This document shows positions 5,294 through 49,026 of a DNA stretch of 64,000 nt, in pieces. Source of the DNA: Camelus ferus (lineage: Eukaryota); NCBI RefSeq assembly GCF_009834535.1, contig NC_045696.1, positions 49,478,001-49,542,000 on the forward strand, written 5' to 3'. The position numbers were made by a program, and so were the translations under genes. How positions within the stretch are numbered: position 1 is the stretch's first letter; every line of letters starts with the position of its first letter. Under the pieces are notes generated by a model. That model saw only the letters and a list, made by a program, of their open reading frames with translations, was not told the DNA's origin and did not search any database.

Positions 5294-5451
5294 GCTTCCT
5301 TAATCACTGGCCCAAGATCTGCAGAAGCTGACTAAAATGCCTTCCTCTTTCTTCTGCTGCTACCACCCAATACTTCTGCTCCTTTAGGGGCCCCTTATGT
5401 CTCCAGAACATAAGTGCTCTCCCTTTAATTTTCTGTGCCCTTCCTCATTAG

Positions 5452-5496
5452 GAAGACAGCATCACAGACTCTTAGATCCTTTATGTGGGTATAAAG
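5452..5496 (+). other. CD96: CD96 alternative exon 4 homologue with in-frame stop (pseudo-exon or poison exon)
   Basis: Polypyrimidine tract and AG at 5450-5451; reads EDSITDS*ILYVGIK (TAG at 5473-5475); donor AAG|GTATGT. Aligns to the human variant-1 insert ENSSTDSWVLLSKGIK and lies 1.5 kb upstream of exon 5. Confidence 0.8.
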
Positions 5497-6392
5497 GTAT
5501 GTACTTTGCTTCAGGAGTGAGTCTGAAGCAGGGTGTGATTCTCTGCAGATGGTACCGTCTGTACGTCCGTAGATAAAGCTGATACCAGTCCTTGCCATAC
5601 TCTTTGAAGAGTTGTGTCTTACACAAGAGTTCCTACTCAGTAGATCCTGGGGGCATTTATAGAAACTGTTTAAAAAGTCTGCCTTCCTGTTTCTGCCAGT
5701 TCTGCTCCTGGCCCGTACTTGAATTCCCTCCCTCACCTGGCTTCCCTTCTTTTGCTCTGAATCTGACTCACTTTTTAAACTACAGATTTCAAATCACAGG
5801 CCTTTGTTTTTCTTATTTCATGACTTCTTCCACATCCAGTGCATTCCTGTTCACCCTCCTCCTTGTCAGTTCCCTCGTTTCCCCTGACCCCTGTGCACAA
5901 TGATTCATCCATTGTTTAGAGTCAGACCAGTGGTTCTCAGCCCTGGCTCCTCTGAGGACCCTTGATAAAAACAAGCGTGCCGTGGGATGAGAGTCATCCC
6001 AGAACGACTGCATTAGAATCTCCACAGCAGAAGCTCGTGTATCAGGATGTGTTCAGAGCAACTCAGTTGAAAACACTGAGTTATACTGAAGGACTATGAG
6101 GACATCACCCTTCCTCCATCCCTGTGCCCCTCGGAGTCCCCTCCTCACTAGGCCCTTAGTCAGCACTTCTACTGACATTGACCAACACTGTGACACCCCT
6201 GGACCTTGTCCATGACTTTCAGGGAAAGGCAAGAATAATGAGGGCTCTTCTTCACAGACCCAGAAAGACATGGACTAGAGGAACAAAGAACTCCAGTCAA
6301 ACTCTGATCTCCAAAATTCAGATGAGCATTTAACAGCCCACTATGAGTCCTCTTTGAAGGTCACAAACACAGAAATAAGGGGAGAAGGGTGA

Positions 6393-6553
6393 GGACCACG
6401 ACCAGGCTGAGGGAAGGAGGTACCAAGGATGCAAAATTTAAGGAGGCACTCACTCTCACGTGCCCACCCTGTACTACCAGGACGCTGAGAGTCAGTGCCT
6501 CTTTAAATTTTGCACCCAAGCAGTCTCTCTTTACCCCCTTCTAGTCCTGGCTT
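6393..6553. mobile_element. MER96-like palindromic hAT MITE
   Basis: 29-bp inverted arms tgcaaaatttaaggaggcactcactctca (6430-6458) and tgagagtcagtgcctctttaaattttgca (6486-6514). Confidence 0.7.
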
Positions 6554-7009
6554 CTGAGGGGAGCTAAAATAAAGGCATGCTAGGAAGAGAGGATGACTGT
6601 AATCATCCAGTTCAGTGAAGATTTGATAAGGAAAACTGATACAGCCTTGTGAGCACGTCTTAGCATTGAGATGTCAGAACTTGAAATAAGAATTACGATC
6701 TGACGTTAACTCGCCGTCCTGTGCCCCCCAAATCCCAACCCTGTTGTACAGCATATGAGTGGTTATGAAGGAGAAGATTTAGTCAGAAGAGCAGCAAGTT
6801 TCTATGTGTGTGGGAGAGAATGACAGCAATTTTTAATTGAAAGTCAAGTGTAATGGTATTTTCTCCAGTAACATGCTCAATATTTCTTAATTTCAGTTCT
6901 TCATCATCTCTGTTGTTACAAAATGTAAATGAATTAATGCATGTGGAACACCTAGTTCAGAGCTGGCACGACTGAGCACTCAAAGCTGGTAACCGTTTTG
7001 TCTCATCAG

Positions 7010-7217
7010 GAGGACAGTGGAACTCAGGAAACACTTATTACCCAAGATCACCCCATCAGCAATTCCACGCTATTTAAAGACAGAGTCAAGCTAGGTACAG
7101 ACTACGCACTCTACCTCTCTCCAGTCCAGATCCACGATGATGACCGGAAGTTCTCTTGCCACGTTGAAGTCAGGCCTGGCAGAATCTTGAGGAGCTTCAC
7201 CACGGTCAAGGTTTTCG
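7010..7217 (+). CDS. CD96: CD96 exon 5 (C-terminal part of Ig domain 2)
   Basis: cag| EDSGTQETLITQDHPISNSTLFKDRVKLGTDYALYLSPVQIHDDDRKFSCHVEVRPGRILRSFTTVKVF |gtaaga; 208 bp, phase 0-1; matches human EDNGTQETLISQNHLISNSTLLKDRVKLGTDY... Confidence 0.97.
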
Positions 7218-16542: not shown

Positions 16543-17378
16543 CCTGTCTCCTCTTTACAGCTTTCCTGGAGCCAAAAGTCTGAGTTGAACCACAACGAAG
16601 GCTAAATGTGTACTCGGGAAGGGACTGTGGTAACTCCTGAGGATTCACAATAATGGCCAAAGGCTGGCCACACCTGGTAGTGTGATGTTTCCTCCTTTCT
16701 GCTTCAGCGGAGAGTCAGGGTGAGTCAGAGCCAAGCAAAATGGCCTGCGAGGCTCTCCTGCGCTCCCTCCATGACCCAGGGACGCCTGAGCCCGCCTTGG
16801 CTGGGCCAGAGGACGAAACAAACCAGCACAGCAGTCACACGGCTCTTCAGTGAACTCGGTGTTCCCTGCGTCAACCAGAACCACAGGGGCTTTTTGAATA
16901 TTGAAAATTTTAGGCTTTCTCTCGATTCTCCTCCTGGCTGCTCCGGCTCTTCCTCTGCTCACGGAGACCCAGAAAATGCGATTTGGAGGCAGGAGGAGCA
17001 GCCTCAGGACTCAGGCTGTTCAGGACGCCCAGGGCTGGGGCCTCCCTGGGTCTTCCTCAGAGTGGGTAGAAGCCTGGACGGGTGCCGATGTAGGAAAGAC
17101 TCGTGCTTCCTAAGAACGGTTGCAATAGGCCATCCGGAGGCTACAGAGCCTGCCAGGGTCTGGGAGATAAAGTTCTCAGTGTGAGGTCCGTTTGTCTCCA
17201 GGGAGGTCGCTCTGGGGCTGGGATTCTAAGAACTCCAAACAGCAGGCTTAGCTGTTTTCAGCAGGAGGAACTGGCAAGCAGGGAGGAGAGAGGTGGAGCG
17301 CATCCCCATGGACCTGGTCGTGCCCAGTTGTCCTCGGCAAGCAGCTCGCCAGCCCACCGCCTTCCCGGGCACCGTGAC

Positions 17379-48234: not shown

Positions 48235-48434
48235 GGTATCTAACCACAAGCATAGACCTTTTGAACTCAGTTTCATAATTCGTAACATGAAGCCATTGCA
48301 TTATGTATTCACCAAGATCCTTTCCAACTCTAATATTCCATGTTCTACATGCCACTCCTGTTAAGTATAGTGGCATATTTAAACATGTGCATGTAAATAC
48401 CTATGACAGTTTGGGAATTTTGTTTTCAGAATAG

Positions 48435-48503
48435 GATATCCAGCTCCATCTTCAACAGCCCTTGTGGATGTGAGTGCATCGACTCCAACTGTCACCCCTC
48501 AAA
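48435..48503 (+). CDS. CD96: CD96 exon 10 (stalk)
   Basis: tag| (R)YPAPSSTALVDVSASTPTVTPQ |gtgctc; 69 bp, phase 1-1; human RYPATSSVTLVDVSALRPNTTPQ. Donor is weak. Confidence 0.85.
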
Positions 48504-49026
48504 GTGCTCAAAGAGCAGGGCTTTCCTCATGTGGCTGAAAAGAGACAACATACGCACAAATTTCACCACAGCTGTGATAATACTGAGATTTGGGCAAAAC
48601 GCTTAGTGTTTTCATTTGATGTTGTTATTTTGGTTTTGAGTTACTCTGTGGCAAATTGTAATCTGATGACTATATATTGATATGACAGTCACTATAATCT
48701 TAAAAATATAGGTTGATGATTTGTTATTATTTTGTACCTTTCATTTGTTGTGGGATTTTAAGGTACTATTAAAGTAATCTTGACAATACTCCCAGTATCT
48801 GACTTGGTGACAGGAACAGAAAAAGAAAGAAAATCAGAGACAAGTTGGCATTAAACATAAACTACAGACTTTGGCTTAATATGCTAGCCAGTGTTCATGC
48901 ATAAAGAAGCATATTTTCAATTTCAGATTTCCCCCAAAATCATATAGATTAAAAATTCAGCACATCAAAGTAAAGTTAAATAATAGCTTTATAAGAAGGT
49001 TGGGTTCTAAAATTTTTGTCTTTCAG

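What the first reader, a model, noticed from the sequence alone, without database searches (positions are those of the whole stretch)
5452..5496. CD96 variant-1 exon homologue has intact splice sites but a premature stop
Seen: a 45-bp, phase 0-0 segment with a good acceptor (ttttctgtgcccttcctcattag) and donor (AAG|GTATGT) encoding EDSITDS*ILYVGIK. Known: in human, alternative exon 4 (ENSSTDSWVLLSKGIK) defines CD96 variant 1, which changes Ig domain 2 and weakens CD155 binding. Here the Trp codon is TAG and one codon is missing. Inference: this species cannot make variant 1. Inclusion would act as an NMD poison exon or give a short secreted product made of domain 1 plus part of domain 2. Either the exon decayed here, or it was ancestrally non-coding and became coding in primates.
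Basis: partly seen in the sequence, partly recalled or inferred. Interest (0 to 1): 0.72.

Follow-up and report, generated by a model that had tools for sequence, protein, structure and literature searches.

The report
Broken optional CD96 exon in camel
This 45-base stretch of the camel CD96 immune-receptor gene is the counterpart of the optional human exon that makes the weaker-binding variant 1, but it carries a real stop codon and is likely a drifting leftover, as the cat and wolverine copies also appear to be, so it is a small evolutionary footnote and probably not a new control switch.

Summary
Observation confirmed. 5452-5496 reads EDSITDS*ILYVGIK between strong splice signals, in the phase-0 slot between CD96 exons 3 and 5 of a camel. 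It is the orthologue of the human variant-1 exon: best of 16,344 intronic windows, score 131 against 89. An RNA-library contig matches across the stop without gaps. Variant-1-type inserts with Trp at that position occur in gene models of apes, tarsier, sea otter and wolverine, so the element predates primates and the camel TAG is likely derived. Its protein sequence drifts at about the neutral rate (mean identity 0.54 against 0.76-0.78 in flanking exons). The wolverine copy is frameshifted and the cat model lacks the Trp codon. All 11 camelid database isoforms seen skip it. No spliced inclusion was seen, in a weak test. Best reading: a weakly constrained old cassette exon, dead as coding sequence in camel, with any leak cleared by NMD. 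A regulated poison exon is not excluded (about 0.17). Human-but-not-mouse variant 1 is already published. Low interest.

The parts
5429..5451 (+). Polypyrimidine tract and TAG acceptor of the variant-1 exon orthologue; a branch-point-like TTAAT lies just upstream at about 5425-5429 (consensus recalled)
   Evidence: pyrimidine fraction 0.85, above all 13 located CD96 acceptors
5452..5496 (+). Orthologue of the human CD96 variant-1 cassette exon, 45 nt, phase 0-0, EDSITDS*ILYVGIK
   Evidence: top of 16,344 windows
5473..5475 (+). In-frame TAG at the position of Trp in ape, tarsier, otter and wolverine models
   Evidence: spanned by a matching contig of run X16
5494..5502 (+). Donor AAG|GTATGT, 8 of 9 consensus matches
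5514..5522 (+). Weaker downstream donor GGA|GTGAGT, used only by gene model P0003 in another frame (likely a prediction artefact that skips exon 3); the stop stays in frame if it is joined to exon 3
7010..7217 (+). CD96 constitutive exon 5 (second half of Ig domain 2), the downstream splice partner
   Evidence: 100% identity to Camelus CD96 proteins; junctions

Best explanation
The segment is the camel orthologue of the human CD96 variant-1 cassette exon and holds an in-frame stop, so it cannot yield variant 1, and it is likely a weakly constrained old exon that has drifted and died as coding sequence. Shown: position, phase, homology, stop and strong splice signals. Inferred: the element was present in the common ancestor of primates and laurasiatherians with an open 16-codon frame and Trp; camel likely changed TGG to TAG and lost one codon; camel cells splice exon 3 to exon 5 and make variant 2; any leaky inclusion would be destroyed by NMD and would have little effect.
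For: Homology: (131 against 89). Trp in models of 5 ape lineages, tarsier, sea otter and wolverine. Mean protein identity over 10 pairs of 5 species is 0.54 against 0.76 (exon 3) and 0.78 (exon 5). Two non-overlapping pairs pooled give 19 of 32 against 178 of 218, Fisher p=0.009, and do not differ from neutral expectations of 0.54-0.66 (the distances of 0.2-0.3 behind these are assumed). Other copies look broken: the wolverine insert ends DKGMYI, matching the camel's shifted frame YKGMYF, so it runs 55 nt to the shared donor; the cat model has 15 residues without Trp. Of 352 proteins with both flanks, 14 carry a homologous insert (10 apes, tarsier, otter, wolverine, cat), 3 fill the gap with intron read-through (yak, deer, ground squirrel) and 335 have none. 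11 of 11 camelid isoforms skip it. Under neutral drift AG and GT both survive a branch with probability 0.47-0.76 and a stop arises with probability 0.12-0.25. Variant 1 is the minor form in human and absent in mouse (PMC5966540, PMC6373967, bioRxiv 10.64898/2026.05.29.727853; passages read).
Against: The splice signals are as strong as or stronger than those of real CD96 exons and only 2 such pairs occur in about 77 kb, which is more than a long-dead exon needs. The donor also reads intact in wolverine. Protein databases cannot show NMD transcripts, so the missing isoforms do not show missing inclusion. Non-ape inserts are gene models that may be guided by human variant 1, so they show an alignable open frame and not expression, and they are a biased sample. 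Three of five single-pair Fisher tests were not significant (p 0.07-0.36). Cluster listings showed at most 15 members each. No non-camel DNA could be obtained. If the cat has TAG at this codon, parsimony no longer favours ancestral Trp. The camel's 3-nt loss keeps the frame. PMC2697156 (abstract and outline) notes that ancient NMD exons tend to be under purifying selection.
Confidence: 0.62

Rival explanations
1. The exon is kept for splicing and not for its peptide: inclusion turns CD96 down in any species, by weak-binding variant 1 in apes and by NMD in camel and wolverine, so it is a regulated poison or attenuator exon.
For: Very strong acceptor and donor. Donor intact in wolverine and implied in otter and cat models. 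Element older than primates. NMD geometry met. Variant 1 binds and takes up CD155 less well in human (bioRxiv 10.64898/2026.05.29.727853, passages read). Ancient NMD exons can be regulatory (PMC2697156, abstract).
Against: The stop is not conserved (Trp in apes, tarsier, otter, wolverine). The protein sequence drifts at about the neutral rate. Splice-site survival on one branch is expected about half the time or more. Mouse makes no variant 1 (PMC5966540). Yak, deer and ground-squirrel models found no open homologue.
Confidence: 0.17
2. The stop is ancestral: the segment was non-coding, and Trp arose separately in primates and in mustelids, with real exon use only in apes.
For: The cat model lacks exactly the Trp codon, which could be a stop removed by the annotation pipeline (recalled practice, not tested). 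No variant-1 isoform was listed for New World monkeys, lemurs, rodents or ungulates. Neutral-like divergence.
Against: It needs two separate gains of Trp. Tarsier, otter and wolverine all have Trp. A 3-nt deletion or TGA in cat would favour ancestral Trp.
Confidence: 0.13
3. Inclusion yields a functional secreted decoy of domain 1 plus part of domain 2.
For: Signal peptide and the ligand-binding domain 1 lie upstream of the stop.
Against: The transcript meets the NMD rule. The 188-residue product would hold half an Ig domain with Cys163 unpaired, likely retained and degraded (inference). No protein ending in this segment was among the 352 examined.
Confidence: 0.04
4. The stop or the missing codon is an assembly error.
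For: This assembly has a one-base frameshift in CD96 exon 2 that another C. ferus model lacks.
Against: A contig of run X16 spans the segment with no gap and no listed difference. P0003 confirms the length.
Confidence: 0.03

Closest known systems
Human CD96 variant-1 cassette exon (Meyer et al. 2009, PMID 19056733: not held, known here only through PMC5966540, PMC6373967 and bioRxiv 10.64898/2026.05.29.727853, passages read)
   Same: Same slot between the two halves of Ig domain 2, phase 0-0, 9 of 16 residues identical.
   Different: Camel copy has 15 codons and a stop at Trp; the human exon is open, spliced in as the minor form, and weakens CD155 binding.
Mouse CD96, which has no variant 1 (PMC5966540, passages and section 15 read)
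   Same: Only the variant-2 type ectodomain is made.
   Different: Camel keeps a recognisable exon with strong splice signals; the mouse DNA state was not seen here.
NMD-specific exons explained by noisy splicing versus regulated AS-NMD (PMC2697156, abstract and outline read)
   Same: An exon with a stop that would send its transcript to NMD.
   Different: Here the exon is old and a multiple of three long, yet shows no sign of purifying selection on protein, and inclusion is not shown.

Membership tests
CD96 variant-1 cassette exon (orthologue) | Lies between exon 3 and exon 5 of CD96, phase 0-0 | tested here: met
CD96 variant-1 cassette exon (orthologue) | Sequence homology to the human insert | tested here: met
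   best of 16,344 windows, 131 against 89
CD96 variant-1 cassette exon (functional) | Open frame adding 16 residues to domain 2 | tested here: not met
   TAG at 5473-5475, 15 codons
CD96 variant-1 cassette exon (functional) | Included in mature mRNA of lymphocytes | tested here: inconclusive
   no joints in 2 RNA runs laid, one with no cover, contigs only, not lymphocyte libraries by their labels
Regulated poison exon (AS-NMD) | Stop more than 50 nt upstream of a downstream junction | tested here: met
   229 nt to the second junction, many more follow
Regulated poison exon (AS-NMD) | Canonical, usable splice sites | tested here: met
   simple consensus scores only
Regulated poison exon (AS-NMD) | Stop-inducing property conserved across species | tested here: not met
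   open in apes, tarsier and otter models; broken in different ways in camel and wolverine
Regulated poison exon (AS-NMD) | High nucleotide conservation of exon and flanks | tested here: inconclusive
   no non-camel DNA obtained; the protein proxy looks neutral
Regulated poison exon (AS-NMD) | Inclusion rises on NMD block and changes with cell state | not testable with these tools
   needs lymphocyte RNA with UPF1 or SMG1 inhibition

The most novel reading that the evidence does not exclude
The CD96 variant-1 exon is an ancient, frame-agnostic dimmer switch: mammals keep its splice sites because inclusion lowers CD96-CD155 binding whatever the exon encodes, through a weak-binding isoform in apes and through NMD in camel and wolverine. 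It may have begun as a short duplication of the exon-5 acceptor. This would answer why human variant 1 exists.
Probability: 0.13. Interest if true: 0.55.

Novelty: new member of a known kind. Interest (0 to 1): 0.2.

Why it matters
CD96 is an immune checkpoint target and the role of human variant 1 is called elusive in PMC5966540. Finding the same exon in camel and carnivores shows it is not a primate invention, and its neutral-looking drift suggests the 16-residue insert is not under old selection. If inclusion were shown and regulated in camel, it would point to a down-tuning role for the exon in all mammals. As it stands it is a lineage-specific loss in a minor exon, a common event.

Tried and rejected
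Read support: 14 of 24 runs listed hold 96-98% of the sampled words of the region, too coarse to tell one base. DNA runs X11 and X9 and RNA run X19 laid no contig, which the tool says can be false. The X16 contig crosses both splice sites unspliced at depth 4.7 with no joints; it may be pre-mRNA or DNA and says nothing on inclusion. The 5496-7010 and exon3-5452 junctions could not be tested, because no stretch laid held both exons. Non-camel DNA: the metagenome scan gave 1 unrelated locus from 452 stretches; the minus-strand frame over the exon gave no word-index candidate and one chance hit, a repeat-rich Ig protein; a tarsier-region search returned only tarsier. PDB search with exon 5 found no CD96 domain-2 entry, best E 0.61. 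The ground squirrel, yak and deer inserts were rejected as homologues: they match intron read-through. Repeat origin: no local copy better than E 0.11 in 114 kb; no repeat library was available. Duplication from the exon-5 acceptor: 14 of 16 bases match, best of 601 acceptor-like sites, but the window was chosen after the fact, wider windows are matched by 1-10 of 601, and gapped alignment is at background; kept as a lead only. Literature: 9 searches listed no paper on this exon outside human and mouse; only titles and abstract starts were seen for most, and for only 20 of 34 and 15 of 61 papers were listed. Meyer 2009 is not held, and its text or supplements may already compare species. No structure was predicted.

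Full report
Setting. The window holds the 3' part of CD96 of a camel. The exon at 7010-7217 is 100% identical to Camelus CD96 proteins, and tblastn of camel and human CD96 places the exons from 14 kb upstream of the window to 63467. The protein matches point to Camelus ferus (P0003, P0152). Exon 3 ends in phase 0 at L002:8790, 1,210 bases before the window.

Observation. The segment, its translation, the stop at 5473-5475 and both splice signals are as reported. Scoring all 16,344 six-frame windows of introns 3-4 against four non-camel inserts puts 5452 first at 131, the next at 89. By simple consensus scores the acceptor beats all 13 CD96 acceptors located and the donor equals the best of 13; only one other such pair exists in about 77 kb of introns. 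These scores are crude, since no trained splice model was available.

Is the stop real? The assembly does have a likely error nearby: exon 2 is 358 nt and shifts frame, whereas another C. ferus model is open there. For the segment, one contig of RNA run X16 covers 5378-5591 with no gap and one differing letter that is not listed, so it lies near a contig end. Three other runs laid nothing. P0003 matches the segment at 22 of 22 residues in another frame, which fixes the length but not TAG against TGG. The stop is likely real, on one contig of depth 4.7 from an unnamed organism.

Other mammals. Of 391 proteins fetched, 352 have both flanks recognisable; 13 more lacked the exon-3 motif and were set aside, and the rest did not match exon 5. 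Seventeen have a longer insert. Ten are apes (human, chimpanzee, bonobo, orangutan, gibbons), all 16 residues with Trp. Tarsier has EHRSTDSWVLLYEAIT with an irregular junction, sea otter EDSSIDTWVPLFGGTK, wolverine EDSSTDTWVPLLGGGGDKGMYI, and cat EDSSTDSVLLIVGSK. The wolverine tail matches the camel's shifted frame across the donor, so its copy would run 55 nt and be frameshifted, likely by a G-run expansion (a homopolymer error is possible). Yak, deer and ground-squirrel inserts are intron read-through and were dropped. All 11 camelid isoforms seen join exon 3 to exon 5. The listings are partial (30 clusters looked up, at most 15 members each), Old World monkeys were barely sampled, and the non-ape inserts are gene models that may be guided by human variant 1.

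Polarity. Trp in haplorhine primates and in mustelids makes Trp the likely ancestral state and the camel TAG a derived single transition. The cat is the caveat: if its missing codon is a TAG removed by annotation, the two histories tie on parsimony. I put ancestral Trp at about 0.8. Either way the element is older than primates.

Constraint. Mean identity of the insert over 10 pairs is 0.54, against 0.76 and 0.78 for exons 3 and 5. Two non-overlapping pairs give 19 of 32 against 178 of 218 (p=0.009), while 3 of 5 single pairs are not significant. Simulated neutral drift gives 0.66-0.54 at assumed distances of 0.2-0.3, a stop on one branch with probability 0.12-0.25, and survival of AG and GT with probability 0.47-0.76. 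So neither the stop nor the intact dinucleotides need selection. The unusual overall strength of the sites remains the best argument for a role.

Mechanism. Shown: the exon cannot encode variant 1. Inferred: camel makes variant 2; if the exon is included, the stop sits 229 nt before the second downstream junction and the mRNA would go to NMD; the 188-residue product would end inside domain 2 with Cys163 unpaired and is unlikely to be a stable decoy. Inclusion was not seen, but no stretch laid held two exons, and the libraries were not lymphocyte RNA by their labels.

Literature. Variant 1 exists in human but not mouse, is the minor form, binds CD155 less well, and its significance is called elusive (PMC5966540, passages and section 15; PMC6373967, passages; bioRxiv 10.64898/2026.05.29.727853, passages). 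PMC2697156 (abstract and outline) argues noise for young NMD exons and possible regulation for old ones. Nine searches listed nothing on this exon in other mammals; the primary paper was not held. Earlier scan notes held nothing on this exon.

Verdict. A real orthologue of a known human alternative exon, dead as coding sequence in camel. Best reading: drifting relic (0.62). Rivals: regulated attenuator (0.17), ancestral stop (0.13), secreted decoy (0.04), assembly error (0.03). New member of a known kind, interest 0.2.

Noticed in passing
window 5444-5459 and 7002-7017: The acceptor context of the segment matches that of exon 5 at 14 of 16 bases, the best of 601 acceptor-like sites, and both begin Glu-Asp; the exon may have begun as a short duplication of the exon-5 acceptor. 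The signal fades in wider windows.
   Followed up: partly
L003, about 7910 (CD96 exon 2, L003:7720-8077): One extra base shifts the frame of exon 2 in this assembly, giving a stop at residue 86; another C. ferus model and other camelids are open, so it is likely an assembly error.
   Followed up: partly
L002:8791-8817 (start of intron 3): The first 27 intronic bases read VSVALFSE then stop in camel, and an unnamed contig protein with human-type CD96 sequence (P0369) ends in the same eight residues: a well conserved intron start, possibly a splicing element or intron-retention product.
   Followed up: no
window 16561-16719: The only other intronic AG-GT pair with equally strong splice scores in CD96, 159 nt long.
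   Followed up: no
exon-5 acceptor, homologous to window 7007-7010: Many carnivore isoforms carry one extra Gln before exon 5, likely from a tandem acceptor.
   Followed up: no
window about 48430-48515: A stalk exon of about 26 residues is present in the 571-residue camelid isoforms and skipped in the 545-residue ones.
   Followed up: no
window about 2690-2830: tRNA-like SINE with a poly-A tail, by eye and from recall of camelid SINEs.
   Followed up: no
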